IMG/VR virus record: IMGVR_UViG_3300020468_000005
Span: 1-64,000 of that record
Direction: 5' to 3' (one strand)
Source: a virus
DNA: 64,000 nucleotides
Part shown: positions 16,590 to 64,000 of the stretch, in pieces
Layout: each line of letters begins with the position of its first letter
Position numbering within the stretch: the first letter of the stretch is position 1
Notes under the pieces: model-generated
Databases searched by the model: none
What the model was told of the DNA's origin: nothing
What the model saw: the letters and a program-made list of their open reading frames with translations, nothing else
Translations under genes and position numbers: made by a program

Positions 16590-16846
16590 GCCACCTCCTT
16601 TTCAAGGTATGCAAACGGGTTGTAACCGCCATCGTAAATCTGGTTCATGATGTCTCTTACTCGCTCTCTGTCGAGACTATCGCCATCGCCCCAAGAGTAA
16701 ACGTCGCTGTCATAATGTGCGATTGCATCAAGGTAGATGCATGTAGCGTAAGCGATCTGCTCTCTAGATCTACCTTGGTCATATAGACCGCCATAACCAT
16801 AGAATGACTTGCAGTATTCTATGAAGTCGTTAAATGAACTATTCAT
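16586..16846 (-). CDS. Hypothetical protein with GDSLD motif
   Basis: FIEYCKSFYG..GLY...GDSLDRERVRDIM. Confidence 0.65.
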   Translation of the reverse strand: MNSSFNDFIEYCKSFYGYGGLYDQGRSREQIAYATCIYLDAIAHYDSDVYSWGDGDSLDRERVRDIMNQIYDGGYNPFAYLEKEVA

Positions 16847-17046
16847 TACTGAACCCCCACTAGTCTTGAGATGTCGTTCATGAAATCGTCGAATTTCCAT
16901 TGTGCTGATTGGTTCAGCATCTGTTGACCGTACATAGGTAGATCTCCAGTATCGGTTGCTTCAGCAACTACTTCATCATAACACGCTTGGTAAATACCCT
17001 CTCGTGTTACTGGATAATCTGTGATGTCTACGTAAAGGAATTGCAT
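16846..17046 (-). CDS. Hypothetical protein
   Basis: 66-aa ORF, first gene after the promoter at 17088. Confidence 0.6.
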   Translation of the reverse strand: MQFLYVDITDYPVTREGIYQACYDEVVAEATDTGDLPMYGQQMLNQSAQWKFDDFMNDISRLVGVQ

Positions 17047-17082
17047 AATCTAAAAATGAATGAATTTCGTTTGTACTCTTTT

Positions 17083-34400: not shown

Positions 34401-37400
34401 GGTGCGACATATACTGCGTCAACAGGTTCATTAACTTTAGATATAGAGAACCATGGATTTACGGCTGCTACTGAGCATACTGCAACTGATGCTACTTTTA
34501 ATACTACTACTGGTATTGTCACAATAACTTCTGCAAGTCATGGATTTGCAGCAGGTGATAGAGTTAAAATAAAAGACAGTTCTATAACCATGAGTTGTGG
34601 TTATAATGGAGGTGGGCAAGAATCATATCCTAAACCAGGTCAACCAATTAGCGGTAAGTGGATAACAGTTAGAGCAATTACCCAAGATACTTTTGATATC
34701 CAATGTCTTAAAGATGCTCCTTGTAGTAATAGTGATGCACACACATTTGTTTCTGCTACTGCAAATGGAATCCTCCACGCTAAGAGTGTAATCAGTATTG
34801 ATGATGAAGCATTAACATTTACATGCACACAAGATGATGACTTCTCTAGAAAATCATATCCTCGTACAACAGATCCTGCATCAAGAGAATTACTTGGTAT
34901 TGAAGCAGTTACCACTGACACTCTAACAGTTAACGTAGGTGCATCACCTCAGGTTACATTCACACCAACTAATGCAGTTTATACTCCTAGTACAGGTGTA
35001 CTAGTATTGACAATAGGTAATCATACTCTTCCTGTTGGTACAGGTATTAGTATTGATGTAAACTCCTTGAAGTTTAGATGTGACATGGAAAATGATGGTA
35101 CTCTCATTGCAGGAAACTTATCAAATCTAGGTGCTAGTCTTCACAATTATCCAAGACCAACAGATCCAGCTGCTAAGAGCAATCTTTATATTACTGAAAC
35201 GACAGGTACTACAATCACAGTTAATGTTAAACCATCTGTCACTGTAAATTACCAACCAACAGACGCTGCCTTGAATCTTGCTAATGGAGATCTTTCATTA
35301 ACTATCGGTGCACATCAATTCCGTGGAGAAAAGACATTTACACCAACAGCTGTTGACTATACTCCCAACACTGGTCTTGCAACATTAACAATTAAAGGTC
35401 ATACTATTCAAGCAGGTGACTTTGTTCAGGTTGCTAAAGAATCACTTACATTTACATGTGCACAAGATAGTCATCAGACTAATCATTCTTATCCAAGAAC
35501 TACTGATCCTGTCTATAGAGAGTGGATTCAGGTTATTTCTGTAACAAATGATACAATACTGCTTAACTTCTACTCAACTGTTGCAGGTAATTCAGCACAC
35601 CTATTTGTATCTGCTGCAGATGACTGTATTGCATTAAAAGGAGATACTATCAAGTTAACAGATGGTAGCATCGTAATGAGTTGTGATAATGGTGGTGTTA
35701 GCAACCAGTCTTATCCTAGAACTGATACTATTTCATATACTCCAACAGGTGCAGATTATGATCCTTCTACTGGAGTCATGACTGTTACTCATGGAGGGGG
35801 TGCAGGTGCCTTTGTGAACGGTGATCAAGTTAAGTTTGATGATAATGCTATTGTATTCACTTGTGCTGCTGGTGGTGGCACACACGCTTATCCTAGACCA
35901 GGCGATCCTGCTAGTGGTAGATGGTTAACTATTTGGAATGCTGACGATACAACCTTCAAGGTTCAGGTATTAGATACAATTCCTTCTACAAATACTAGTG
36001 TACATGTATTCTCTAGTGCTGTTAATAATGGCACGAAGAAAAAGAAAGACTGGGCGTATGATAGACCGATTCCGATCAAGAGTGTTGGATATACATCTCA
36101 TGCTGTAACAAATGCTACATATGATCCTAGTACAGGTGTACTAGTAGCAACAGTTGCAGGTCATGGATTCTCAAATGGCGAATATGTTAAAGTAAATCAA
36201 AGTGCATTGAAGTTTACATGTAATAAAGATAGTAATGCAACAGTTAAGAGTTACCCAACACTAGAAGATCCTTATTATGATGAGTGGGTAAAAGTAAGAA
36301 ATGTTACAACTGATACATTTGAGATTAATGTTGGAGTTGCAGGTCCTAATGGACAGCACACCCATACATTTGTACCAGAGGGTAAATTGACACCAACCTT
36401 AGGAGCATACAATCCAACAACAGGTGTTATGACTATAACTATTCCTGATCATGGATTTGTTGCTGGTGATGAGATCAAAGTTGATGACAATGCGTTTAGA
36501 TTCACATGTCTTGAGGACTTTGATACTTCATACCATGATTATCCTCGTAACACAGACCCAATCAGCGGTCAGTGGGTTAAGATATACAATGTCACAACTA
36601 ATACTTTTGATATACAGGTTCTAAACAGTGTACCGTCTACTAATACCACTACTCATACGTTTATTTCCGCAGTTGCTAATTCGATTACTCGCTCTGCCAT
36701 CAAGAAGCAAACTGGCGTTATTACGTTCAATACTAATAATAGAGATGCTGCTATTACTCATCAGTACGCTCATAGTTTTGTATCAGCAAGTGCTACAGCC
36801 GTCATAGCAGGTGGCAATTATACTCACACCTTCATACAGTCAACATCTGGTGCTGTTAAGACTGGTGGTGATTATGTACATACATTCGTCAATGCTAAAC
36901 CTACTTCTGTAAAATATGGATATACTCACTTGTACACAGGAAATGCAATTGCTAATCCTGTAACAAGAGGTCTAGTAACATCTGGTGGTCATGCATACGA
37001 TAGATTAGCTGATGCGGGTAGATTAATACGAGCAAACTTAGATTTCATTGCAACTACTGCATATGGTAGAATGCTTGCATTGAATCCTACTTTTGATGGT
37101 GATCTCTATAAGAGAAAATGTATTCGTGATACTAAGTTAATTTCTGAAGCAGTAGCAAACAATATTGAGTTTGGTGGAAATGATGGTGTTTATGATGCAG
37201 CAAATTTCTATGTTGGAACTGTACACCTAACTGGTGAAGAAGATCAATCTGTACAGGTGTTCAATGCTGCTAGAGATATCTGTCGTGAGGTAATGCGTAA
37301 TATCACTGTTACAACTAATTACGTTACTGAAGGATCACAAGTTAAGGATCTTACTATTACCAATGATAGTGGAGACAATACCTATACTACAGCAGACTGT

Positions 37401-38954
37401 AGCGATATTGCATCTGCTATTAGCACACTATGGGGAATAGTAACACAGGCAGTAGGAACAACTGCAGGTGGTTCAGGTAACTTGAATAACGTTACTAGAA
37501 CTGCTTCTGAATCTCCTGAGTTCCAAGTTGAGATTGATACAGTAACATTTGATGGAGTTGATACAACATTTAACGCACAGGTTAATGGTTCAAACTATTC
37601 ATTACCTGCAAGTGATAACTTCTTAATATTCTTGAATAGTATTCTTCAACTTAAAGGTAGTACTGAATCATATACTTACACAGGTAGTGCAATTACATTT
37701 AATGAAGCACCTGTTAGTGGTATGGACTTCTATGGATTCTACTTTGGTAAATTAGTTCTTTTAGATGATCTTTCTCCATTCTTTGACAATAGTAAGGAAA
37801 CCTTTACTATGACACTAAACAATGAACCATTCTCATTAGAGAGTGATAATGAGAATGTAGAACCATCAAATAACTTGATGATATTCATTAATGGAGTATT
37901 CCAAGAACCTGGTGTCGCATACTCTCTTAATGGATCAATTATAAAATTCAGTGAAGCTCCAAGAGCAAATTCTCAAGCATCCTTGTACATCTATACTGGA
38001 TCTGATGAAGATATATTTGTTTCCAATACATTTAACTCAATTGATCCTACAGACAGAATGCAGGTTGCTAGTGAAGGATCTGATCGTTTAATCGCAACAG
38101 TCTCAAGTGCTACTTCAGTTGATACTTACGAATATGTTGGACTTAGACCAACCACTGCTACATTTACAGCAGTATTGACTAATGGTGTTGTTACTAATAT
38201 TATTATTGACAATCCTGGTGAAAATTATGAAGATCCTCCAGTCCTTCTATTCCAAGGAGGTAGTGGAGTTGGTGCTAGTGGAACTACCACTATTGAACCA
38301 GGTAGCGGTAAAGTACTTACTGCTACTATTGCAAATGGTGGTACTGGATATTTAACCGTACCAACAATAGTTCCTGTTCATGCTGTTGATATAGAGAGAA
38401 AATCTAGAGATAGAATCATTTCCAATTCACTTGCTTTGGGATGTACATATCTTACTTCTTCCATAACTGACAGTAGTACAACTCTCAACTGCAAGAATAT
38501 ATACTATGATACTAGTCAAAGAATTGGTTTCCCCGATGAAGGCGAAGTATTGATACCATTCTATGATACAACTGTTACTCCAAACAGATGGAATGTAGAA
38601 AGAATTCTATACGGATCTAGAAATACATCTGCGAATACAATAACCGTAGCAACAGGTGGTAGAGGATATAGAGGAACCACTGCAGCTGCACACACTGTTT
38701 TAACAGGAACATACAGTGCGTCTGGAATAACTTGTACCGTGACTACATCCGCAACTCATAATTATGTGACTGGTATGAAAGTTTTCTTGGACTTTACAAG
38801 TGGACCTACAGCAGAACCAATAAACTGGGGTTTTGATGGAGAGTATGCGGTTACAGTTACATCTGGGAACACATTTACGGTAGAATTCCCATTCAGTCAA
38901 ACATCAAGCGGAAACGTCTCGATTCTGCCAGAAGTTCGTCTGAGATCATTATAA
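25401..38954 (+). CDS. gp7: Giant baseplate wedge initiator gp7 (4517 aa) with YHYH domain, beta-sandwich repeats and a phycobiliprotein-like domain
   Basis: IKDFYASKGT..SF..LFG and HPAGFK gp7 motifs; lies between gp6 and gp8; IGWAYDGHPIYGPYG...LDRYNGR YHYH-type region. Confidence 0.85.
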   Translation: MATNQSSWKVGQWTTPTTTVTTQPVPSEVTAESRSQISHNIPGQFASFIQDEYPTFIEFVKAYYKSQELRGYCFDVINNWGDYYNIDNYGSLIVETDLISSMSTTSTTVDVTTTRDFPDEGLLMIDDEIIYYKNKGQTIFNDCSRGFDAVKAVGTASQYVFAETTAAEHALGAKVVNLNNIFPLFMLGQFKDQYLSTYPKNFSDGVTESTVIKRIKDFYASKGTTRSFQFVLRTLFGVESEVSYPRDRIFKPSDAFFTNREVIRATAVSGDPTELVGEVLYQENDPSDPYVNEARIYVKGVQKVFTASGEIYEIDVDTNNSSGTFVTPYKTTIASDVPSRLDFTTITVDSTLGWPELNGRFRVQDEIITYTNKTVNQFIGCTRAREGTTSDEHIAGQEAFAAFRIYGKSNLDGSDIQIKVYGGTRGVNLTNGGKYYLPKSKVTTPAAPGFDSLDPIWSSFQYNVRKALRGVTAELATPAADGSVRVTVTTREKHRLRRDDKVRILNAAEDIYNNEHDVVGIIDEFKFEFILGSAPSQPILETDGLFFISREFAFGTSVYTSINNLVSQYTADVQNVYKSTDNAIVASTGIPSHKIGPFSVNDPDPGNQRYLKRIPLVPSTKSTKTPTPVGQVGIGVNGVPFFSYKGTSTKKFGGIASITKNDGGDGYDIENPPTVEFEPDYKLNTTYASGNVIKYDDNGTVRRYRAQNPGTSDKITYPTHTSGAVRHGTIDWEYLGLGASAEAIIDGRIIAINVTNGGGGYTRQPIVSISGGGAPNSTQATAVAQITDGRVTGIAVTYSGAGYTKVAGLPNISISGGGGVGAAASAVVRGPINTINITNTGSEYTYEPNITLKSGDGAVGYASILSGKIESIIVTFGGADYFGAPDVVITGDGVGATAFAVVDPTSRQVTSVTVTNKGLGYTTGNTQISIVYPGDGARFTTNLTQLTYNEAATADEIKKNNPSAIFSDRKVVDDANGTVVRGENIGIYDGEYGYFYTPDNLRYYLGDSIESRIPTVADPSPWIEQTPIGHSPIIGWAYDGHPIYGPYGFEDRQNQNPYNSYIQPASSYRIKTSRASILSGLTDPMGTFIEDYEYVEGLGDLDRYNGRYCVTPEYPDGVYAYFTTIDGVSGAPKFPYFVGPDFYSEADEINWNGNGLQRNFTEDAIRFRAPYIGTDQVTAKRKALDSRIDFVLALEDSTTLITLESGEVLQYIEDGIGYFSYYPTIRGGSAQSLTVAATNRYSSTNINDFLVEGGGQGYKVNDRLLFDNTDTGGDGVSATISTITGEPVSTLNYVVNDEDVTIATLTTTNNHYLVGGDQITVSIGDNTYERELKSYLYNSKFYFKYFDLVSYDFITEWTNSTAYNKFDLVFVANRVYQATETATSDSDANNAPTHVSGTVSDGTMLWKYIRKRTDGALIATTTNSQGSGYLPGVYTDVPMLTNGNGKNLILDLTVAANGTISVGSIPTTADRGTAFKIGDTITVDDDNVGSNGGSGFQLTVTQISLEAVVRTDAAHQLGVGDIVDFKGMNVGTYNGDFTVVRTETLRRFTISVNQLGTNAAPNITSSVVSVREPKFQFINGHSYKFDTSDSTLNNVTLAFTLDPLNTDIFTYKNITDEVVDTQTLQQTSITLKVVDLPGIFYYFDLAGQYSITGSYFTIMNEPLAGTNILLSKTDTTASYATALEPEVNYDASNTITYSTNSIYPTGGVSTISIGDSGRNYESLPQLSGSTRAGAGATAVATISGVLSGVSVTNKGSGYNPASLPTGVVTLPDFVDLTLTNVLGSGSFAVNEIIISQSAQGTQTARGKVISWDPLSSTLRIQPLQNGRTGAANKGYIMFTTFAANNDRGKVFSSDSQATISAVSGAQATVLCSIPSSGPDVGRLSEVTVNGPGSNYRAAPNIILDDPDFGLVNTVTITTNTTGLTPGQYTGVTQSAVNPTGGTNVEFTVTSGAGGTVEQVVVTNGGGTYRLGDIITIPGNQIGGATTANDITVTVTVLTHIDPASTLCSLNATVDSITITNTGSGYLSAPDVLVSGGSGINAKFNASIQNQGISAINIEAGGELFQNAPVVNITQKTGTGASVLLKSTDLGKILKIGGDNITFNYSHDRTLKPELNTTFNLQLTRTQVIDYLEVTDGGANFVAIPEIVLTGGSGSLFDLRAVIENEVIQSVEVRNPGRGFLSAPSVSARITHNWVGLRSNSTLNFPYNAKIPTGTKVTLNENIGTFPTPLVTNTTYYAIAATLANGLANNQIRLATTQANAIAGTYINFTGDPIGDANGLTEFTLSSTDLGDIITAYMKPANFLVGERVYQGTSTTTYTAFGIIKDWDSRGRILSVEIIEGDFLSGEPVFGEESAAFGEIHAFDRADATFNVSPISTSAEGWERTTGFLDVNEQRIYDSDRFQEYSYEISSPININKWKNPLKFAAHPAGFKVLGTQVVLESSAKIYRSKSTINSNYSSNEPWAWWVESPQPNLQTFNGTTYVFPKPSARSTGKLATIKNFALGDPDYSAAVPTEVQIFGRQLLDIQKILSCISYKIDDISSSFDGSTTVFNLTISGATVTTKIGKTSIKEQFLVTINGIVQNPNNYTFANDAITFSVAPKANSVALIMYYDRASYTSSFQLDQIGDEIKAFDITNGLTGGTGYADGTYTAIPLRNKIGSGVGATADITVSNGYVSNVVLNNSGDGFRDDGIVGISEIGKPLTNSYTPSTATYAPSTGVLELTVGSHTLSAPTTATATDIDYNPNTGIMTVTLVSHGLEAGDQVKFADNSITLSCAFGGASGAAAQKTYPRSTDYASDRWLEVSNITVNTFDVQVLDSIPSTNVDPHSFVSAVAGGISIAQSTVRFSNNAITFSCGFGGGGNRSYPRSTDPIAGKNVPVDAITSTTFTINALNGTTPTNTDAHTYVGNATAALSPTFVDYDASLGIMKLELANHGLSNGNFIQFTSDSLNFICSRDNYATTTAYPRGSDPAAVNWLNVFDVETNSFKVQVGANIEKAFTPTGATYTASTGSLTLDIENHGFTAATEHTATDATFNTTTGIVTITSASHGFAAGDRVKIKDSSITMSCGYNGGGQESYPKPGQPISGKWITVRAITQDTFDIQCLKDAPCSNSDAHTFVSATANGILHAKSVISIDDEALTFTCTQDDDFSRKSYPRTTDPASRELLGIEAVTTDTLTVNVGASPQVTFTPTNAVYTPSTGVLVLTIGNHTLPVGTGISIDVNSLKFRCDMENDGTLIAGNLSNLGASLHNYPRPTDPAAKSNLYITETTGTTITVNVKPSVTVNYQPTDAALNLANGDLSLTIGAHQFRGEKTFTPTAVDYTPNTGLATLTIKGHTIQAGDFVQVAKESLTFTCAQDSHQTNHSYPRTTDPVYREWIQVISVTNDTILLNFYSTVAGNSAHLFVSAADDCIALKGDTIKLTDGSIVMSCDNGGVSNQSYPRTDTISYTPTGADYDPSTGVMTVTHGGGAGAFVNGDQVKFDDNAIVFTCAAGGGTHAYPRPGDPASGRWLTIWNADDTTFKVQVLDTIPSTNTSVHVFSSAVNNGTKKKKDWAYDRPIPIKSVGYTSHAVTNATYDPSTGVLVATVAGHGFSNGEYVKVNQSALKFTCNKDSNATVKSYPTLEDPYYDEWVKVRNVTTDTFEINVGVAGPNGQHTHTFVPEGKLTPTLGAYNPTTGVMTITIPDHGFVAGDEIKVDDNAFRFTCLEDFDTSYHDYPRNTDPISGQWVKIYNVTTNTFDIQVLNSVPSTNTTTHTFISAVANSITRSAIKKQTGVITFNTNNRDAAITHQYAHSFVSASATAVIAGGNYTHTFIQSTSGAVKTGGDYVHTFVNAKPTSVKYGYTHLYTGNAIANPVTRGLVTSGGHAYDRLADAGRLIRANLDFIATTAYGRMLALNPTFDGDLYKRKCIRDTKLISEAVANNIEFGGNDGVYDAANFYVGTVHLTGEEDQSVQVFNAARDICREVMRNITVTTNYVTEGSQVKDLTITNDSGDNTYTTADCSDIASAISTLWGIVTQAVGTTAGGSGNLNNVTRTASESPEFQVEIDTVTFDGVDTTFNAQVNGSNYSLPASDNFLIFLNSILQLKGSTESYTYTGSAITFNEAPVSGMDFYGFYFGKLVLLDDLSPFFDNSKETFTMTLNNEPFSLESDNENVEPSNNLMIFINGVFQEPGVAYSLNGSIIKFSEAPRANSQASLYIYTGSDEDIFVSNTFNSIDPTDRMQVASEGSDRLIATVSSATSVDTYEYVGLRPTTATFTAVLTNGVVTNIIIDNPGENYEDPPVLLFQGGSGVGASGTTTIEPGSGKVLTATIANGGTGYLTVPTIVPVHAVDIERKSRDRIISNSLALGCTYLTSSITDSSTTLNCKNIYYDTSQRIGFPDEGEVLIPFYDTTVTPNRWNVERILYGSRNTSANTITVATGGRGYRGTTAAAHTVLTGTYSASGITCTVTTSATHNYVTGMKVFLDFTSGPTAEPINWGFDGEYAVTVTSGNTFTVEFPFSQTSSGNVSILPEVRLRSL
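33510..36950 (+). repeat. About 11 protein-level repeats (~100 aa; Y.P.TG...HG...TF.C...YPR.TDP...H.FV.A) in gp7
   Basis: Eleven YP(R/K/T) cores counted in the translation. Confidence 0.8.
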
Positions 38955-57677: not shown

Positions 57678-60600
57678 ATGGCTCTTAAGATTAATTCTGA
57701 CCAACAGAGAATATCAGCATCGGGTGCTACCCCTACAGGAAATTGGGTTGGTGCTACGTATAGTAGGACTGTGGGAGGACTTGTAAATATCCTTTCAGTT
57801 GGACACGGGTTTATAGGGAACGAAAAGTTATATATTGACTTCACATCTGGTGGTGAAACAGATGGAACATATATTGTATCAAAAGTAGATGATGATAATT
57901 TACAATTTCAGAGTACTAACTTAGGTGTAATCACTGCAGGTAACACTGCAGCATATAGAAGAGTAAGATCTTTAAGTGTACAAGGTGATGAATCTGTAGA
58001 ATTTTCAGTGGGTGTAGATGCCAACGAAAAGGATGCTATAACTTTAAACTTAAATGCACAGAATAATATTAGAGTTGGTGTTAATACTACCGATCCACAG
58101 TATGAACTAGACGTTGAGGGACAGATTAGAACAACTCGTTCTATCATTTCTGATACTGCACAGGTTACAAACCTTGATATCAATACGATTATCAACCCTG
58201 CATTAGATCTTCGTGGTCCTAATTTAATTAACTATGAAGATACAGATGTAACAAGTCCTACATTTGGCACAATATTTTTCCCTACTGCTGACACACCTCC
58301 CCTAAGTGATCAGTCAAGAAGGGTTGCAACCACTGACTTTGTATATAAAGTTGCTACTAATGACACTGGTGGTCGTGTATACGTGTCACAAACTATTGGT
58401 AGTGATCTAAATGATGGTCGTTCAGCTGCAAGACCAGTTAAAACTATTAAGAAAGCAGCACAGATTGCTTATACTTTACAAAAAGCACAACCAGATCCTA
58501 GTGATGAATACGTTTCACTAATCGTATCTGGTGGTGAATACTTTGAAGATAACCCAATTACACTTCCTAGGAACTGTTCACTTATTGGTGACAACTTAAG
58601 ACGAGTAATTGTTAGACCTCAAAACCAAGATCGTCATATGCTCAAAGCGTCTAACGAGACGTATGTGTTCGGTGTTGTATTCAGAGATGCATTACAAAAT
58701 CAGTCAGATCCACAAAGTACTGTTATTCATACTTGGAAGTATGCGTTTGTGTTTGATGACAAACAAAGATTATATTACGAACCAGAGTTAGGACAGATTC
58801 CATCAATACCTGGTGATAAGTTCCGTGGTGATAACCTTTTCAACATTACCTTTACCAACCATACAGGTAACAATACAACTCTCGTAGTTGGTTATTTTCT
58901 ACAAGGTGGATCTTCTGGTACATTAGGTACAATTCAAGAAATTACATTTACAGGTCCTGTTGCATCACCATACTCCACTGGTTCTGTTAAAGTCTTAATT
59001 ACATCAGGTGTTAATGATGTATTCCAAGACGCTGAAAAAGTATTCTATGATTCTGTAGCAGCAAATATTATTACTGACATTAATAATGCAGGTGTGTCTG
59101 ATAGATTTGACGTATCTGATGCTGAATCATTAAGACCAGAATTAGAGACAATCTCTAACCAGATTTATCAGCATACAATCAACTCAGAAAGAGAAACTAT
59201 TGCTTTTGCTGCTGATGGTACTAAAGTAAATACAACTACAGATCGTATTACAATCACTGGTCACGGACTTAAAACTGGTGATCAAGTTTATTATGAAAAA
59301 GATGAAAACGCTGCGGCTCTTGGTGGTCTTGCTGACAGCACACTTTATTATATAAGAAACGTTGATGCTAATACTATAGAACTTTATGATCTTTGGGTAG
59401 ATGCTACAGCAACTACAGCAACTACAGGTATTAGAAATTTAAGTTCGGTTTCCCCAGATACTAAACTTCACTTATTTACTACTGGTAAGATGATGCCAGA
59501 GGGTAATCATATCTTTGTTGATACCCATCAATTTGCAAGTGGTGATGGTGTAGTATACCGTGAGAGTAAAATGGGCAAGATAGACGGTCTTGTCTCTGGT
59601 ACAACATATTATGTTTATAAGGAAAATGTAAATTGGTTTAGACTTGCATCATCTGCTGCTAACGCATTAAACAAAGATGCTCAAGGTAATGATGCTCCTG
59701 TAACTCTTCCTCTTAATAGTACAGGTTTAGGATATCAAAGATTTGAAATAGCAGATAGAATATACTCAATCGCAACTCTTGACACATCATTAGCTACACA
59801 GCAGACCTACAATGGTCCTATATTCAATATTTCTGGTACTACTTATCATGACTATGAGGTAGGACAAGAAATTCAGTTATATGGATTCACAAGTACTGCA
59901 ATTGATTTTGGTGGATCTGTAAACTCATCTTGGAGTTTAGCTTCTGGTGAAGTTACAGTTACTTTAAGCACTGTAGATAATACACTTGTTACTAATCTAT
60001 TCTCCAACTGGATGTCACTTGGAGAATGTGGTCTGAAGTTTAGTTTTGGTGGTACAGGATCTGAAGCATTAAGCAAGACATATCATATTGATAACTTCTC
60101 TCTAGGATCTGGAACTCCATCATTACCTGGCAACACTGCACTAGGTATGGGTTATGCCAGATATAATAGTTCTTCTTTAACTGTTACTTTTGTACTTAAG
60201 ACAGCAAATATTCAATCAACAACTAATACTGCAACTGCTACTGGTTCTACAGTCAGTGTTTTAGATAACGTTGAAGATCTTAATGGTAGAAAATATATTA
60301 CACATCGTATAGAACGTGCTGATGGTTACTCACTACAGTTTGTAGTAAGATCTTCTATCAGTGTATTTAATACAACATTTAATCCAACTGGTAACCAGTC
60401 AGTTATTTCAACTAGCAACTATGTTCTAGCATCTCTAAGGAACTCTCCTTATGGATTTAAAAAGATAGATCAGACAGACAGATATAGAGATGGTGCAGAA
60501 TCTATCAGAGCAAACCAAGAATTTATTGCACAGGAAGCATATGGATATGTTAAATCTCATTATGAAAACTCTGCTACTAGAAATAGCACTTTAACAATAG

Positions 60601-63600
60601 GACCTACTACATTCGTTGCATTAGGAGATACATTTGATCATCCTATTACCGAGTGGTCTACTAGTTTCAATAAGTTAACAGTTAAAGTTAATACTGGACA
60701 TAACTTATTCCAAGGATTCCAAAATCATAATCACATTTACAATGGTGGCACAGCAACTAATGCTATTACCATTACACAGGGTAGTGTTCAGAAAGACGTA
60801 ACTGATGCAACATACAATCCCGTTACAGGTGATCTTGTATTAACAATAGGTGCACACAGTTATACTACTGCTAATACATTAACCATTGCAAATGGTGCTA
60901 TTAGTTTCACATGTTCTAGAGATAATCACGCAACATCTCATACCTACCCAAGAGCAACAGATCCTGCATACGGTGCGACTCTAGCAATTAAAGAAGTAGA
61001 TGCTTCTGGTACAGTTACTGTTAACGTTGGTGTATCTGCTGGTGTTCAGATTAAAGGTAGTTCCACTGCTGCTATTAATGGTACATGGGCTATTGATGAG
61101 GTATATGATCACAGAACATTTGTATTAGATCTAGGTATCACTTCTCTTACAACTGATACTACTGGAACTGACGGTACATTCCAAGATATAAGAAAACCAT
61201 TTAGAACTCCAAATAGTTTCCCAGTAAATAACAAACAAGGTGATGCTGCTGATTTGATAGCTGCTAACGCTGAAATGATCGCTGAGGTAGCTGTTGAGAG
61301 AATGGTTGCTAATACTGGTTATAGCGTACCTACAGGTAATACAGCGTGTACTGATGACATTAAAGACTTCTTACAGAAATCACTTTATCACAACCTCAAG
61401 TGGGGTGGTAATGATAGAGTATATGATGCTGCTAATTACTATCTAAAACAAGTAACTACAAGTAATCAAAGTAAGTATATTGAAGCATTCAATTATGCAA
61501 AAGATTATGCTGCTAAGGTAGTTCGTAACTTGCCTATGCTAAGGCATCCACATACACTTCATACTCAGTTCTTTAATACTACAATTACTTTAGATAGAGC
61601 AGTGTATGGACAGGTTCCTAATAAGACACAGGATGCTTCAAACTTAATTAATCTTAACAACACATTTATATCTAACGAAGCAGTAGAACGTTTTGTTTCT
61701 AGTATGACTGAGACTCCAGTTGAGGCAGTCAATGGAAATGATATTACAATTAATGCACTTAATGGTACTACTCCAACAAATACTAGTCCACATACATTCC
61801 AAGGTTTAAGCACATATCAGTGGCAACCTTCAAACGTTGCTTATGATCCACTCACAGGTGAGATGATCATTACTATTAATGCTCACCCATTTGTTGATGG
61901 AGACAGAATTTTAATAGCACCTAATTCATTAACATTTACATGTGCTTCAGATAGCAACAGTGCTCAGAAAACATATCCTCGCACAACAGATCCATACTAC
62001 AACAAATATATTGGTGTACGTAAAGTAGATGCCAACAATATTAAAGTTAATGTTGGTGCTGCTAAAACTGATGTTACTGCACATACATTTGTAACTGCTA
62101 CATCAACTGCTATTAGTAGAGCAGTCGTTTACAACGATACTGGATTTACAAATCATACAGTAACCAATGCATCCTATGAACCAATTACAGGTGTATTACA
62201 ATTAACAATTCCTAATCATGGATTTACCGTAGGTGAAAAGGTACAAGTTGCACAGGATTCATTGACCTTTACTTGTGCTATGGATGACAACTATTCTAAG
62301 CACACATATCCAAGAGCAACAGATCCTGCACTTAATGTTTGGAAGAGTGTTTCTAATGTTACACAGGACACTTTTGACATTAACGTAGGTACTACACCTC
62401 CTATCACATTTACTCCTACAAACGCTGTATATACCCCTACAACAGGTCTTGTTGAAGTTACCATAGGAAACCATACACTTGAAGCTCCTACCACTCACAC
62501 TGTAGAAGGTGCAACATTAGATGTTGCCACTGGTGTGATGACTGTTACTATTAACGATCATGGATTCCAAGAAGGAAACAAGATCAATATTGCTCAAAGT
62601 TCTATAACTATGAGTTGCCCTTATGGTGGCGGTGGTCAAGAATCTTATCCAAAAGCTGGTCAATATATTGATGGTAAGTGGATCAATATATGGAACGTAA
62701 CTCAAAATACATTTAGTTTTGACACTACTGGTGGTGTACCATTATCAGTTAATGATGCTCATACATTTGTATCTGCAACTCCTAATGGATTAAGTCGTGT
62801 TAAAGAACATATCAAACTTACAACAGGTGCATTAACATTTAAGTGTGCTGAAGATAATTTCTCAACTGAACATTCTTATCCAAGAGCACTTGTAGATACA
62901 CATACAGCAACTAATGGTACAACTTATGATCCTAATACAGGTATCATGAAAGTTACCACCACTGCTGCTCATGGAATGAGAAATGGTGATTGGGTTAAGA
63001 TATCAGAAAATTCCATGACATTCAGTTGTGGATACAATGGTGCTTCTGGTGCAGCTGCACAAAAAACATATCCAAGATCAACAGACCATATTGCTAATAA
63101 ATGGCAGAAGATTCTCAATGTAACTGCAACAACATTTGAAATTCAAGTTTTATCTACAATTCCATCTACTAACCTTGATGTACATACATTTGTATCTGCT
63201 ACTTCAAATGGAATTCAACAGAAACGTGACAAGTCTTACAATACTTCAGTTCCTATCGTAGCAAAAACTGGAACTACAATTACTATTGACGTTGGTATTT
63301 CTTCTAATTCAACTGCACACACTTTCCAGTCTGCACTTAACAACTCAGTTATTACTGGTGGTAACTATGCACACACATTCGTAAGTTCTGTTACTAACGG
63401 TGTTAAGAGAGCAACTTCTTCCACAATCTTAAATTACGTTCCATCTGGTTCAACATATAATCCTTCAACAGGAGATATGGTCATAACGATTGGATCTAAT
63501 CAATTGTTAGCTCCAACTACACATACTTCTACTGATGGTGCTTATAATCCCACTACAGGTATTATGACTGTCACCGTTGCTAATCACGGATTCAATGTTG

Positions 63601-64000
63601 GTGACAAAGTTAAATTTGCTGTCGGTGCTATAAGCTTTAGTTGTACTCATGGTAGTGGTGGTACAACTGCATATCCTCGTTCTTCCGATCCAATTGCGAA
63701 TAAGTGGGTTATCATTTCTAATGTGACTCAGAATACATTTGATGTTCAAACATTAGATTCAGTTCCTTCTACTAATACTACAACTCACACTTATGTAAGT
63801 TCTGCTGCTAATGCTATTAGTCATGCTAGATCTACAGTTAAAGTTGCAACAAACTCTATAATCTTTAGTTGTACTCATGGTAGTGGAGGAAATAAAACAT
63901 ACCCTCGTGTAACTGATCCTATTGCATCTGCTAGATTCTCAATTCCTAATCATAATAAAGATTGTAAGGATGATGTTTCTGATGTATTGAGAGCTGTTGC
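57678..64000 (+). CDS. Giant virion structural protein (>2100 aa, 3' truncated) with beta-helix cap, YPR repeats and phycobiliprotein-like domains
   Basis: ATG 57678 (MALKINSDQQRIS...). Same frame spot-checked at about 60420-60570, 61200-61700 and 63900-64000; absent from the ORF track, consistent with no stop before the window end. Confidence 0.85.
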   Translation, partial: MALKINSDQQRISASGATPTGNWVGATYSRTVGGLVNILSVGHGFIGNEKLYIDFTSGGETDGTYIVSKVDDDNLQFQSTNLGVITAGNTAAYRRVRSLSVQGDESVEFSVGVDANEKDAITLNLNAQNNIRVGVNTTDPQYELDVEGQIRTTRSIISDTAQVTNLDINTIINPALDLRGPNLINYEDTDVTSPTFGTIFFPTADTPPLSDQSRRVATTDFVYKVATNDTGGRVYVSQTIGSDLNDGRSAARPVKTIKKAAQIAYTLQKAQPDPSDEYVSLIVSGGEYFEDNPITLPRNCSLIGDNLRRVIVRPQNQDRHMLKASNETYVFGVVFRDALQNQSDPQSTVIHTWKYAFVFDDKQRLYYEPELGQIPSIPGDKFRGDNLFNITFTNHTGNNTTLVVGYFLQGGSSGTLGTIQEITFTGPVASPYSTGSVKVLITSGVNDVFQDAEKVFYDSVAANIITDINNAGVSDRFDVSDAESLRPELETISNQIYQHTINSERETIAFAADGTKVNTTTDRITITGHGLKTGDQVYYEKDENAAALGGLADSTLYYIRNVDANTIELYDLWVDATATTATTGIRNLSSVSPDTKLHLFTTGKMMPEGNHIFVDTHQFASGDGVVYRESKMGKIDGLVSGTTYYVYKENVNWFRLASSAANALNKDAQGNDAPVTLPLNSTGLGYQRFEIADRIYSIATLDTSLATQQTYNGPIFNISGTTYHDYEVGQEIQLYGFTSTAIDFGGSVNSSWSLASGEVTVTLSTVDNTLVTNLFSNWMSLGECGLKFSFGGTGSEALSKTYHIDNFSLGSGTPSLPGNTALGMGYARYNSSSLTVTFVLKTANIQSTTNTATATGSTVSVLDNVEDLNGRKYITHRIERADGYSLQFVVRSSISVFNTTFNPTGNQSVISTSNYVLASLRNSPYGFKKIDQTDRYRDGAESIRANQEFIAQEAYGYVKSHYENSATRNSTLTIGPTTFVALGDTFDHPITEWSTSFNKLTVKVNTGHNLFQGFQNHNHIYNGGTATNAITITQGSVQKDVTDATYNPVTGDLVLTIGAHSYTTANTLTIANGAISFTCSRDNHATSHTYPRATDPAYGATLAIKEVDASGTVTVNVGVSAGVQIKGSSTAAINGTWAIDEVYDHRTFVLDLGITSLTTDTTGTDGTFQDIRKPFRTPNSFPVNNKQGDAADLIAANAEMIAEVAVERMVANTGYSVPTGNTACTDDIKDFLQKSLYHNLKWGGNDRVYDAANYYLKQVTTSNQSKYIEAFNYAKDYAAKVVRNLPMLRHPHTLHTQFFNTTITLDRAVYGQVPNKTQDASNLINLNNTFISNEAVERFVSSMTETPVEAVNGNDITINALNGTTPTNTSPHTFQGLSTYQWQPSNVAYDPLTGEMIITINAHPFVDGDRILIAPNSLTFTCASDSNSAQKTYPRTTDPYYNKYIGVRKVDANNIKVNVGAAKTDVTAHTFVTATSTAISRAVVYNDTGFTNHTVTNASYEPITGVLQLTIPNHGFTVGEKVQVAQDSLTFTCAMDDNYSKHTYPRATDPALNVWKSVSNVTQDTFDINVGTTPPITFTPTNAVYTPTTGLVEVTIGNHTLEAPTTHTVEGATLDVATGVMTVTINDHGFQEGNKINIAQSSITMSCPYGGGGQESYPKAGQYIDGKWINIWNVTQNTFSFDTTGGVPLSVNDAHTFVSATPNGLSRVKEHIKLTTGALTFKCAEDNFSTEHSYPRALVDTHTATNGTTYDPNTGIMKVTTTAAHGMRNGDWVKISENSMTFSCGYNGASGAAAQKTYPRSTDHIANKWQKILNVTATTFEIQVLSTIPSTNLDVHTFVSATSNGIQQKRDKSYNTSVPIVAKTGTTITIDVGISSNSTAHTFQSALNNSVITGGNYAHTFVSSVTNGVKRATSSTILNYVPSGSTYNPSTGDMVITIGSNQLLAPTTHTSTDGAYNPTTGIMTVTVANHGFNVGDKVKFAVGAISFSCTHGSGGTTAYPRSSDPIANKWVIISNVTQNTFDVQTLDSVPSTNTTTHTYVSSAANAISHARSTVKVATNSIIFSCTHGSGGNKTYPRVTDPIASARFSIPNHNKDCKDDVSDVLRAV

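What the first reader, a model, noticed from the sequence alone, without database searches (positions are those of the whole stretch)
60477..64000. Further, nested phycobiliprotein-like domains in the last giant virion protein
Seen in my translation, three starts of the same domain. (1) 60477: DRYRDGAESIRANQEFIAQEAY, then interrupted. (2) 61230-61530: NKQGDAADLIAANAEMIAEVAVERM...TACTDDIKDFLQKSLYHNLKWGGNDRVYDAANYY...SKYIEAFNYAKD, Cys codon 61347; YIEAFNYAK resembles the recalled phycocyanin-alpha WYIEALKYIK. (3) 61620: NKTQDASNLINLNNTFISNEAVERF, then ~750 aa of beta-repeats, resuming at 63960 with DCKDDVSDVLRAV. Copies 1 and 2 lack their closing helices within the window. Inference: domains are inserted inside one another, so the virion may display an array of putative bilin-binding modules on at least two proteins. 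Arg of CxRD is replaced by Asp here, so ligand or spectral properties may differ from the gp7 copy.
Basis: partly seen in the sequence, partly recalled or inferred. Interest (0 to 1): 0.85.

Follow-up and report, generated by a model that had tools for sequence, protein, structure and literature searches.

The report
Nested phycobiliprotein-like domains in cyanophage fibre
A giant tail-fibre protein of a marine cyanobacterial virus holds three copies, inserted one inside another, of the protein fold its hosts use to carry light-harvesting pigment, with the pigment-attachment residues kept, so the virus particle may carry pigment, although that has not been shown.

Summary
The ORF 57678..70265 (4195 aa) opens three copies of one ~170-aa helical domain. 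It closes them beyond the window in reverse order. The P-HM2 orthologue has copy 3 uninterrupted, so the ~740-aa beta-repeat block here is a clean loop insertion. A fourth, contiguous copy lies in the gp7-like protein.

The domain is a true remote relative of phycobiliproteins:
- A profile of 30 copies hits only phycobiliproteins in the PDB, best E 1.4e-6.
- Pfam PF00502 is hit by 12 of 30 copies.
- An AlphaFold model (pLDDT 88.8) matches phycoerythrin beta at Z 15.7.

The Cys82 and Asp85 equivalents are kept in 99% of about 1330 copies. Matches in 50,697 phage records are all marine cyanophages. The domain co-occurs with the phage lyase gene cpeT and with light-dependent adsorption.

Bilin binding itself is inferred, not shown. 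The scan found this domain family before on other DNA: 59 notes in at least 52 genomes. No paper describing it was found.

The parts
57678..64000 (+). Tail-fibre / baseplate-associated giant gene. It runs on to contig position 70265 and encodes 4195 aa.
   Evidence: ORF. PHROG phrog_5342 'tail fiber protein', 3001.9 bits. Orthologue of the P-HM2 'tail fiber protein / YapH'.
60468..60563 (+). Copy 1 opener helix pair (aa 931-962; corresponds to phycobiliprotein helix B, including the Asp39 equivalent).
   Evidence: HMM positions 4-35, iE 1.3e-6 and 2e-4. Its body lies beyond the window at contig 64434-64808 (aa 2253-2377, HMM 41-173, iE 4.4e-36).
60564..61220 (+). Beta-rich module inserted after the copy 1 opener, before copy 2 (aa 963-1181).
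   Evidence: Translation. No match to the domain HMM. Holds one 'TFxC...YPRxxDP' type repeat.
61221..61610 (+). Copy 2: opener, Cys helix (Cys codon 61347-61349, motif C-x-D-D), GGN, and helices up to the 'TIT.D' strand (aa 1182-1311). Only the last helix is missing.
   Evidence: HMM 4-134, iE 2.6e-49. Pfam PF00502 13.0 bits, below the 22.2 cut-off. Its closing helix, with the second Cys, lies at contig 64311-64430 (aa 2212-2251, HMM 134-174, iE 1.5e-8).
61614..61712 (+). Copy 3 opener helix pair (aa 1313-1345), sitting in the G-H loop of copy 2.
   Evidence: HMM 5-37, iE 6.6e-7.
61713..63929 (+). Array of 'YPR' beta-repeats, ~739 aa, inserted in the B-E loop of copy 3 (aa 1346-2084).
   Evidence: Absent from the P-HM2 orthologue. 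Window aa 1339->2089 corresponds to P-HM2 fragment aa 1557->1566 (blastp).
63930..64000 (+). Start of the copy 3 body (Cys codon 63963-63965, C-x-D-D). It continues to contig 64310 (aa 2085-2211).
   Evidence: HMM 36-174, iE 3.2e-46. 74% identical to the P-HM2 orthologue from here on.
36981..37502 (+). Uninterrupted fourth copy in the 4517-aa gp7-like baseplate protein (Cys codon 37119-37121, C-x-R-D). Used as the reference for alignment and fold.
   Evidence: HMM 4-174, iE 1.6e-74. AlphaFold2 pLDDT 88.8, pTM 0.88. Foldseek and VIA-align top hits are phycobiliproteins.

Best explanation
SHOWN: domain identity.
The region encodes three copies of a ~170-aa all-helical domain. The domain is a divergent member of the phycobiliprotein (globin-like) superfamily and is closest to beta subunits.

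SHOWN: nesting.
The copies are nested by domain insertion.
- Copy 1 is split in its B-E loop. That loop carries a beta module plus the whole of copy 2.
- Copy 2 is split in its G-H loop, just before the second Cys. That loop carries the whole of copy 3.
- Copy 3 is split in its B-E loop by a ~740-aa beta-repeat array.
- The polypeptide therefore opens 1, 2, 3 and closes 3, 2, 1. The three closures lie just past the window.
- A fourth, unsplit copy sits in the gp7-like baseplate protein.

SHOWN: conserved residues.
The residues that align with phycocyanin-beta Asp39, Cys82, Asp85 and Cys153 are kept in all four copies.

INFERRED, about even odds: bilin binding.
Each domain still binds a linear tetrapyrrole. 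The pigment would be thioether-linked at the Cys82 equivalent and perhaps also at the Cys153 equivalent. It would be loaded in the infected cell from host or phage-made bilin, autocatalytically or by the phage T-type lyase CpeT. Baseplate and fibres would then carry pigment.

INFERRED, less likely: light sensing.
The pigment makes the adsorption apparatus light-sensitive.
For: Nesting:
- The piece HMMs abut exactly.
- The P-HM2 orthologue has copy 3 contiguous (HMM 10-174), with 9 aa where this phage has 750.
- The closing pattern recurs in 20 of 64 related IMG/VR loci.
- 5 of 5 loci examined show outer opener / full inner domain / outer closer.

Homology:
- A profile of 30 copies against 177,635 PDB sequences gave 78 hits at E <= 10. 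The 60 listed are all phycobiliproteins. The best is phycocyanin beta 6jpr_B, E 1.4e-6.
- That alignment puts the family's D-A on Asp39-Ala40 and its C-x-[RD]-D on Cys82-x-Arg84-Asp85.
- Pfam PF00502 is hit by 12 of 30 copies, while no other family is hit by more than 2. Two copies pass the curated cut-off, at 27.7 and 22.6 bits against 22.2.

Fold:
- The model has pLDDT 88.8.
- All 35 Foldseek rows shown are phycobiliproteins or, in one case, a 'bacterial fluorescent protein', with TM 0.54-0.63.
- VIA-align of 48,161 chains puts phycobiliprotein-family chains in the top 8, at Z 15.7-11.9.

Site conservation:
- Across 1448 domain hits in 151 proteins, Cys is 99%, Arg 91% (Asp 5%) and Asp 99% at the C-x-R-D positions. 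The second Cys is kept in 56%.

Context:
- tblastn with two divergent copies hit 289 and 341 of 50,697 phage records, all of them marine cyanophages.
- In 18 complete genomes, 12 have both the domain and CpeT, 2 have the domain only, 0 have CpeT only, and 4 have neither. Fisher p = 0.005.
- P-HM1, P-HM2 and S-PM2, which need light to adsorb, carry 7, 7 and 12 matches. P-SSM2 and P-SSP7, which adsorb in the dark, carry 0 (passages of PMC6628666).
Against: - No chromophore has been observed, and none of these tools can show one.
- The domain lacks the N-terminal X-Y hairpin of phycobiliproteins. Alignments start at chain residues 16-35.
- It has a 7-residue deletion just before the Cys. In 6jpr_B that stretch holds Arg77 and Arg78.
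- The three fibre copies have Asp where phycobiliproteins have Arg84.
- The alignment of the second Cys with Cys153 is a sub-threshold stretch (-2.2 bits).
- The window's own copies are weak against Pfam: copy 2 scores 13.0 bits, and the gp7 copy and the copy 3 body have no hit.
- P-SSM2 has a bilin reductase but no domain, so phage bilin synthesis does not depend on the domain.
- The three domain-less T4-like phages may be one clade (recalled), and the tests take no account of relatedness. The co-occurrence and the five-phage light correlation are therefore weak.
- The two incomplete records are uninformative. G001 (71% complete) has 10 matches and no CpeT. The window's own contig (49% complete) has no CpeT. 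Both were left out of the 18.
- In the nested model (pLDDT 67.6) only the inner domain was clearly matched. Reassembly of the outer domain rests on weak rows, for example 4g1b_A at Z 6.6.
Confidence: 0.55

Rival explanations
1. The domain descends from a phycobiliprotein but no longer carries pigment. It serves as a stable helical hub in baseplate and fibre proteins. Its two tolerant loops (B-E and G-H) accept inserted beta modules, and the conserved C-x-R-D survives for folding or packing reasons.
For: - The domain is always embedded in giant structural proteins, with up to 30 matched stretches per protein, and it is repeatedly used as an insertion site.
- The X-Y hairpin is lost, and the stretch holding Arg77/Arg78 is deleted.
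- Arg84 is replaced by Asp in all three fibre copies.
- The second Cys is kept in only 56% of copies.
- The paper searches turned up no report of pigmented cyanophage particles.
Against: - Cys and Asp stay at 99% at exactly the chromophore-attachment positions across about 1330 copies that are otherwise around 25-45% identical. A purely structural role does not easily explain this.
- The domain is restricted to phages of bilin-making hosts.
- CpeT never occurs without the domain: 0 of 12 CpeT-positive genomes lack it.
Confidence: 0.33
2. The pocket binds some other ligand, or the conserved Cys makes a protein-protein cross-link (disulfide or thioether) that stabilises the virion. Bilin is not involved.
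For: - Virions are extracellular, where disulfides are stable.
- There are two conserved Cys per domain in the window's copies.
- Globin-fold sensor domains that bind other ligands also match the model, at Z about 10-11.
Against: - No conserved His that could bind heme appears among the invariant or near-invariant columns.
- By the alignment to phycocyanin beta, the two Cys correspond to Cys82 and Cys153. In phycobiliproteins these are two separate chromophore sites (general knowledge), so an intradomain disulfide is unlikely.
- The full C-x-R-D signature is that of bilin sites.
Confidence: 0.08
3. The resemblance is a generic helical-bundle similarity or a modelling artefact, and the 'nest' is merely a set of unrelated helices.
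For: - Helical models often reach middling Z scores (tool note).
- Whole-protein Pfam scans found nothing significant.
- The ESM Atlas gave no usable hit.
Against: - The sequence-only profile search is significant and exclusive to phycobiliproteins.
- The alignment register is the same in every Pfam hit, protein positions about 5-70 against profile positions about 27-99.
- The top Z of 15.7 stands well above rank 50 at 5.5.
- A natural un-inserted orthologue proves that the halves belong together.
Confidence: 0.02

Closest known systems
Phycobiliprotein beta subunits (phycocyanin CpcB, phycoerythrin CpeB; Pfam PF00502)
   Same: - Globin-like fold: Z 15.7, rmsd 3.4, 147 aligned to 5aqd_M, and TM about 0.6.
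- Significant profile similarity.
- Equivalents of Asp39, Asn47, Gly71-Asn72, Cys82, Asp85 and, weakly aligned, Cys153. The Gly-Gly lies 18-19 residues after the Cys, as in the phycoerythrin alpha alignment.
   Different: - 13-20% identity.
- No X-Y N-terminal hairpin.
- A 7-residue deletion before the Cys.
- Arg84 is Asp in the three fibre copies.
- The domains are embedded, and nested, inside 4-kaa virion proteins rather than being free 17-20 kDa antenna subunits.
- No evidence of bilin or of alpha-beta pairing.
Phycobiliprotein-like domain of the core-membrane linker ApcE
   Same: - A phycobiliprotein fold built into a large multidomain protein and interrupted by a loop insertion.
- Close structural match: 4xxi_A at Z 12.9, rmsd 2.4, 117 aligned, and Z 13.8, rmsd 2.3 for the inner nested copy.
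- ApcE attaches its bilin without a lyase (recalled), which would be a precedent for self-loading.
   Different: - ApcE is a cellular phycobilisome component with a single such domain.
- Here the host protein is a phage baseplate or fibre protein, the copies are multiple, and the insertions are whole domains hundreds of residues long.
Phycobiliprotein-like arrays in giant baseplate proteins of other marine T4-like cyanophages
   Same: - Same domain family. The profile finds 773 representative proteins at E <= 1e-3.
- It finds 2-15 matches in 14 of 17 complete T4-like cyanophage genomes.
   Different: - Most of those are described as tandem or contiguous copies in gp7-like proteins.
- Here three copies are nested three deep in the fibre gene.
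- They belong to the minority C-x-D-D variant (5%).
Globin-coupled sensors and photocobilins (globin-fold ligand or light sensors)
   Same: - Same broad fold: 8j2y_B Z 11.2, 4zva_A Z 10.8.
- They show that this fold can act as a sensor module.
   Different: - Lower scores than phycobiliproteins.
- No sequence-level hit.
- No heme-binding His is conserved.

Membership tests
Phycobiliprotein family (Pfam PF00502 'Phycobilisome protein') | Globin-like phycobiliprotein fold (helices B, E, F, G, H around a bilin pocket). | tested here: met
   AF2 model of the gp7 copy has pLDDT 88.8. Foldseek gave 10 hits at E <= 1e-3, all phycobiliproteins. VIA-align top 8 of 48,161 chains are phycobiliprotein family, Z 15.7-11.9. 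The fibre copies themselves were not folded; they are assigned by alignment.
Phycobiliprotein family (Pfam PF00502 'Phycobilisome protein') | Sequence similarity above a curated or statistical threshold. | tested here: inconclusive
   The family profile against the PDB is significant (E 1.4e-6). Two of the 20 copies examined singly pass Pfam's cut-off (27.7 and 22.6 bits against 22.2). The window's own copies do not: copy 2 scores 13.0 bits, and the gp7 copy and the copy 3 body have no hit.
Phycobiliprotein family (Pfam PF00502 'Phycobilisome protein') | Bilin-attachment Cys82 in the motif C-x-R-D, with Asp85. | tested here: met
   Cys and Asp are invariant in 30 of 30 rows and 99% in about 1330 copies, aligned on Cys82 and Asp85 of 6jpr_B. 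Arg84 is met in the gp7 copy and in 91% of the family. It is not met in the three fibre copies, which have Asp.
Phycobiliprotein family (Pfam PF00502 'Phycobilisome protein') | N-terminal X-Y helix hairpin used for alpha-beta pairing. | tested here: not met
   Model residues 1-159 align to 5aqd_M residues 26-184. Sequence alignments begin at chain residues 16-35. Beta-rich sequence directly precedes each opener.
Phycobiliprotein family (Pfam PF00502 'Phycobilisome protein') | Second bilin site of beta subunits (Cys153, with Asp39). | tested here: inconclusive
   Asp39 aligns with the family's near-invariant Asp, but in the wide family that position is only Asp 38% / Asn 34%. The second Cys aligns with Cys153 only in a sub-threshold stretch (-2.2 bits). 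It is present in all four copies here and in 56% of the family.
Phycobiliprotein family (Pfam PF00502 'Phycobilisome protein') | Covalently bound linear tetrapyrrole. | not testable with these tools
   Needs expression with bilin synthesis genes, or spectroscopy or mass spectrometry of virions.
Phycobiliprotein family (Pfam PF00502 'Phycobilisome protein') | Assembly into alpha-beta monomers and ring-shaped trimers or hexamers. | not tested
   No oligomer prediction was obtained. The only complex-prediction request did not complete.
Nested (domain-in-domain) architecture | The two halves of a split copy together make one complete domain, and an un-inserted form exists. | tested here: met
   HMM coordinates abut: 5-37 | 36-174 and 4-134 | 134-174. 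The P-HM2 orthologue has copy 3 contiguous. 5 of 5 relatives examined show outer/inner/outer order. The structural model confirms the inner domain (Z 15.3), but the outer one only weakly.

The most novel reading that the evidence does not exclude
T4-like cyanophage particles are biliproteins. Bilin (phycoerythrobilin or phycocyanobilin from host or phage enzymes) is attached in the infected cell to the phycobiliprotein-like domains of the gp7-like protein and the fibres, with the phage's own CpeT serving the Cys153-type site. In the free virion these pigments then act as a photoreceptor that gates fibre or baseplate deployment. This would explain two open puzzles. One is why P-HM1, P-HM2 and S-PM2 adsorb only in the light, independently of host photosynthesis. 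The other is why phages of Prochlorococcus, which has no phycobilisomes, carry cpeT and bilin-synthesis genes.
Probability: 0.2. Interest if true: 0.95.

Novelty: new variant of a known kind. Interest (0 to 1): 0.85.

Why it matters
Phycobiliproteins are known only as antenna subunits and linker domains of cyanobacteria, red algae and cryptophytes. Finding their fold, with the attachment Cys and Asp almost invariant, as a repeated building block of the adsorption apparatus of the ocean's commonest cyanophages is unexpected.

It gives concrete, cheap experiments for two questions the literature calls unresolved.
- The role of phage cpeT, pebS and pcyA is described as 'remains unresolved' and 'remains a mystery' (passages of PMC3037559; PMC2984593).

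The three-deep nest with a natural un-inserted orthologue is also a clean example of how giant phage fibre proteins grow by inserting domains into loops.

Tried and rejected
Leads that gave nothing:
- Whole-protein Pfam scans of the window part and of the full 4195-aa protein gave only chance-level hits, E1_FCCH and End_beta_barrel. The domain is seen only when copies are scanned singly or as a profile.
- The ESM Atlas gave no usable hit for the gp7 copy.
- The first, shallow profile (4 rows) gave only E 0.35-0.48 hits to phycoerythrin alpha. I treated these as a lead, not a result.
- CpeT (PF06206) was not found in the window's own contig. This is uninformative. The contig is about 49% complete. 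By comparison with P-HM2 (cpeT at about 19.9-20.2 kb, gp7 starting at 46.3 kb), the contig should begin just past where cpeT lies.
- 34 longer homologues of the gp7 copy carry no precomputed PF00502 (0 of 34), and those with a source name are called 'hypothetical protein'.

Structural test of the outer, split domain:
- The two-level nest of a relative (L026, 330 aa, 6-row alignment) folded at only pLDDT 67.6.
- VIA-align rows were taken up by the inner domain. Only weak rows span both outer halves, for example 4g1b_A at Z 6.6 with 131 aligned over residues 2-321.
- This test is therefore inconclusive. The nest rests on sequence evidence and on the P-HM2 orthologue.

Readings rejected:
- A heme-binding globin, because no conserved His appears.
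- An intradomain disulfide, because the two Cys map to separate sites.
- A chance helical match.

Papers:
- Searches listed no paper that describes phycobiliprotein-like domains in phage structural proteins. I saw only listings and the starts of abstracts.
- 'phycobiliprotein-like' together with 'phage' returned 0 papers.
- I read passages only of PMC2984593, PMC6628666, PMC10452541 and PMC3037559.
- Gasper et al. 2017 on phage CpeT (PMC5336146) is not held and was seen only as a reference. Jia et al. 2010 was seen only as reference 18 of PMC6628666.
- Supplementary files were not opened. Tables of virion proteomics there could bear on whether these proteins are in particles.
- Freshwater phage AS-1, also reported as light-dependent (references 16 and 17 of PMC6628666), was not tested for the domain.

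Full report
What is there.
- The window is the first 64 kb of an 88,572-bp viral contig.
- It comes from a relative of the Prochlorococcus myoviruses P-HM1, P-HM2 and MED4-213, about 75% nucleotide identity over 500 bp only.
- Positions 23.5-57.7 kb encode a T4-type baseplate module: gp6-like, a 4517-aa gp7-like protein, gp8-like, and further 'baseplate wedge' and 'virion structural' proteins.
- The finding lies in the next gene, 57678..70265. This is a single open frame of 4195 aa that runs off the window. It matches PHROG 5342 'tail fiber protein'.

The observation.
- I cut the three copies into three kinds of piece: opener helices, Cys-helix block and closing helix. I built an HMM of each kind and searched all 150 ORFs of the contig.
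- Each HMM found one further place, and the three places lie in order and contiguous in the gp7-like ORF (iE 2.7e-6, 1.9e-15, 1.2e-6). Everything else was noise, iE >= 0.26.
- So there is a real ~170-aa domain with four copies in this contig: one whole, three split.

The nest.
- Past the window's end the protein continues with the body of copy 3 (aa 2085-2211), then the lone closing helix of copy 2 (aa 2212-2251), then the body of copy 1 (aa 2253-2377).
The HMM coordinates of the halves abut: 5-37 | 36-174 and 4-134 | 134-174.
- The strongest evidence is a natural control. In the P-HM2 orthologue, copy 3 is uninterrupted (HMM 10-174). blastp aligns window aa 1106-1339 to P-HM2 fragment aa 1329-1557, and window aa 2089-3726 to aa 1566-3207 at 74% identity.
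- So 9 residues in P-HM2 stand where this phage has about 750. The 'YPR' beta-repeat block at 61713-63929 is therefore a lineage-specific insertion into a loop of copy 3.
- Among 64 related IMG/VR loci, the closing pattern (body, lone closer, body) recurs in 20. The opener pattern (three-quarter copy followed at once by a lone opener) recurs in 2.
- Five of five loci examined more closely show outer opener / complete inner copy / outer closer.
- The insertions sit at two places. One is between the opener helices and the Cys helix (copies 1 and 3). The other is just before the last helix (copy 2).

What the domain is.
- A 30-row alignment was built from references only (A2). As a profile against all PDB sequences it gave 78 hits at E <= 10. 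The 60 listed are all phycobiliproteins.
- The best hit is phycocyanin beta 6jpr_B at E 1.4e-6. Cryptophyte and red-algal phycoerythrin beta chains follow, and alpha chains come further down.
- Counting along the printed alignment, the family's Asp-Ala falls on Asp39-Ala40. Its Asn falls on Asn47, a Gly-Asn on Gly71-Asn72, and its C-x-[R/D]-D on Cys82-Ile83-Arg84-Asp85. Seven residues of the phycobiliprotein, including Arg77 and Arg78, have no counterpart.
- A second, sub-threshold stretch puts the family's second Cys on Cys153.
- Pfam's Phycobilisome model (PF00502) is hit by 12 of the 30 copies scanned singly. No other family is hit by more than 2.
- The register is always the same. Two copies pass the curated cut-off: P0145 at 27.7 bits and the L068 copy at 22.6 bits, against 22.2. 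The window's own copy 2 reaches 13.0 bits. The gp7 copy and the copy 3 body reach nothing.
- AlphaFold2 on A2 gave a confident model of the gp7 copy: pLDDT 88.8, pTM 0.88, six helices.
- All 35 Foldseek rows shown are phycobiliproteins, or in one case a 'bacterial fluorescent protein', with TM 0.54-0.63 over about 165 columns and 10 hits at E <= 1e-3.
- An independent all-against-all alignment to 48,161 chains ranks phycoerythrin beta first: 5aqd_M, Z 15.7, rmsd 3.4, 147 aligned, model 1-159 on chain 26-184.
- Allophycocyanin follows (Z 14.0), then the ApcE bilin-binding domain (Z 12.9, rmsd 2.4) and five more phycobilisome chains. Only after these come photocobilins (11.2) and globin sensors (10.8). 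Rank 50 has Z 5.5.
- Sequence and fold therefore agree. This is a phycobiliprotein-superfamily domain without the N-terminal X-Y hairpin.

Conservation of the pigment site.
- The profile finds 773 representative proteins at E <= 1e-3 in a 1.84-billion-protein library. Most are 1-7 kaa long, with up to 30 matched stretches.
- In the best 150 plus this protein I counted 1448 domain hits. At the motif positions Cys is 99% of 1327, Arg 91% with Asp 5% of 1337, and Asp 99% of 1339.
- Also conserved are an Asp 14 residues later (96%), a Tyr (95%) and the Asn of the opener (92%). The second Cys is present in 56% of 430. The Asp39-equivalent position is Asp 38% / Asn 34%.
- The roles of Cys82, Asp85, Asp39 and Cys153 in binding the two bilins of beta subunits are taken from established knowledge of phycobiliproteins, not from a call.
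- The three fibre copies belong to the C-x-D-D minority. All four copies here keep both Cys.

Distribution and context.
- tblastn of the gp7 copy hit 289 of 50,697 phage records, and a 23%-identical copy (L068) hit 341. Every hit record is named Synechococcus, Prochlorococcus, Cyanophage or Marine. The features under the hits are gp7 / baseplate wedge, short tail fibre, tail fibre and structural protein.
- A whole divergent representative gave the same picture, 381 records.
- In 18 complete genomes I searched for the domain (A2) and for CpeT (PF06206).
- Both present, 12 genomes, with domain match counts: P-HM2 7, P-HM1 7, S-PM2 12, S-SM1 3, P-RSM4 4, Syn33 3, Syn19 2, Syn1 8, S-SSM5 3, P-SSM4 2, Syn9 3, S-RSM4 15.
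- Domain only, 2 genomes: S-ShM2 5 and P-SSM7 4. CpeT only: 0. Neither, 4 genomes: P-SSM2, S-SM2, S-SSM7 and the podovirus P-SSP7.
- Fisher p = 0.005, or 0.015 without the podovirus.
- These genomes are related. The three domain-less myoviruses may form one clade (recalled). The p-values therefore overstate the evidence.
- Two incomplete records, G001 and the window's contig, were left out.
- A bilin reductase (PF05996) is present in P-HM2 and P-SSM2 but not in S-PM2 or P-SSP7. Bilin synthesis genes therefore do not track the domain, whereas the lyase gene does in this sample.
- A review states that T-type lyases serve the position equivalent to Cys153 of the beta subunit (passage of PMC10452541).
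- Liu et al. 2019 report that P-HM1 and P-HM2 do not adsorb in the dark. P-SSM2 adsorbs in the dark, though less, and P-SSP7 adsorbs in the dark.
- The three light-requiring phages carry 7, 7 and 12 domain matches, and the two dark-adsorbing ones carry none. Five phages are far too few for a claim, but the prediction is sharp.

How it most likely works.
- Shown: a phycobiliprotein-derived domain, nested three deep, on two proteins of the adsorption apparatus, with the attachment Cys and its partner Asp under strong constraint.
- Inferred, about even odds: the domains still bind bilin covalently.
- Inferred, about one in five: the pigment makes adsorption light-dependent, with phage CpeT as the loading enzyme.
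- The main rival is a pigment-free structural hub whose loops accept insertions. The lost hairpin, the deletion of the Arg77/78 stretch, the Asp-for-Arg change in the fibre copies, and the absence of any report of coloured virions keep that rival alive.

Structure of a nest.
- A 330-aa natural two-level nest from a relative (L026) folded at pLDDT 67.6 with a 6-row alignment.
- The inner copy again matched phycoerythrin beta (Z 15.3). The outer, split copy could not be assessed properly, because each PDB chain reports only its best placement.
- Only weak rows span both halves, for example a flavohemoglobin globin domain at Z 6.6 with 131 aligned over residues 2-321.

Novelty.
- Six searches aimed at phycobiliprotein-like domains in phages and two on adjacent topics listed no description of such domains in phage structural proteins. 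'phycobiliprotein-like' with 'phage' returned no paper.
- None of 34 database homologues of the gp7 copy carries PF00502. Those with a source name are called 'hypothetical protein'.
- Within this scan the family has been noted before on other DNA: 59 notes in at least 52 genomes, several followed up with the same conclusion. The gp7 copy and the nesting of this genome were also noted.
- New here are the three-deep nest proven by an un-inserted orthologue, the C-x-D-D variant, and the small co-occurrence tables. Other follow-ups may hold similar tables that I did not see.

Noticed in passing
window 58360-58650 and contig 64850-65800 (beyond the window): The stretch around aa 230-330 looks like the start of a right-handed beta-helix. 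The sequence straight after the nest (from about aa 2395) looks like its continuation. If so, the whole 2000-aa nest may itself sit inside a split beta-helix domain. This is read from the translation only.
   Followed up: no
window 61713-63929: The 739-aa array of 'TFxC...YPRxxDP' beta-repeats is missing from the P-HM2 orthologue. The same repeat type occurs in the gp7-like protein, according to earlier notes e1-6124501 and e1-6124503. It appears to be a mobile module within these giant genes.
   Followed up: partly
P-SSM4 record NC_006884, about 16642-17064: Pfam CpeT matches P-SSM4 at 37.4 and 22.9 bits, although the 2010 review says cpeT is not found in P-SSM2 and P-SSM4 (passage of PMC2984593). 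P-SSM7 and S-ShM2 had candidates that did not pass E <= 0.001, so divergent CpeT-like genes may be under-counted.
   Followed up: no
protein P0187: One homologue of the gp7 copy is named in NCBI as a hypothetical protein of a Porticoccaceae MAG. This is probably a cyanophage contig binned into a bacterial genome.
   Followed up: no
window 1 (contig start): By synteny with P-HM2 (cpeT at about 19.9-20.2 kb, gp7 from 46.3 kb), this contig should begin just downstream of where cpeT would lie. Its absence from the contig therefore says nothing.
   Followed up: partly
L051 and L060, 1093-1368: In these relatives the closer of the outer copy is followed directly by a 'YPR' repeat (alignment A5). This shows a third way the two module types are combined.
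   Followed up: no
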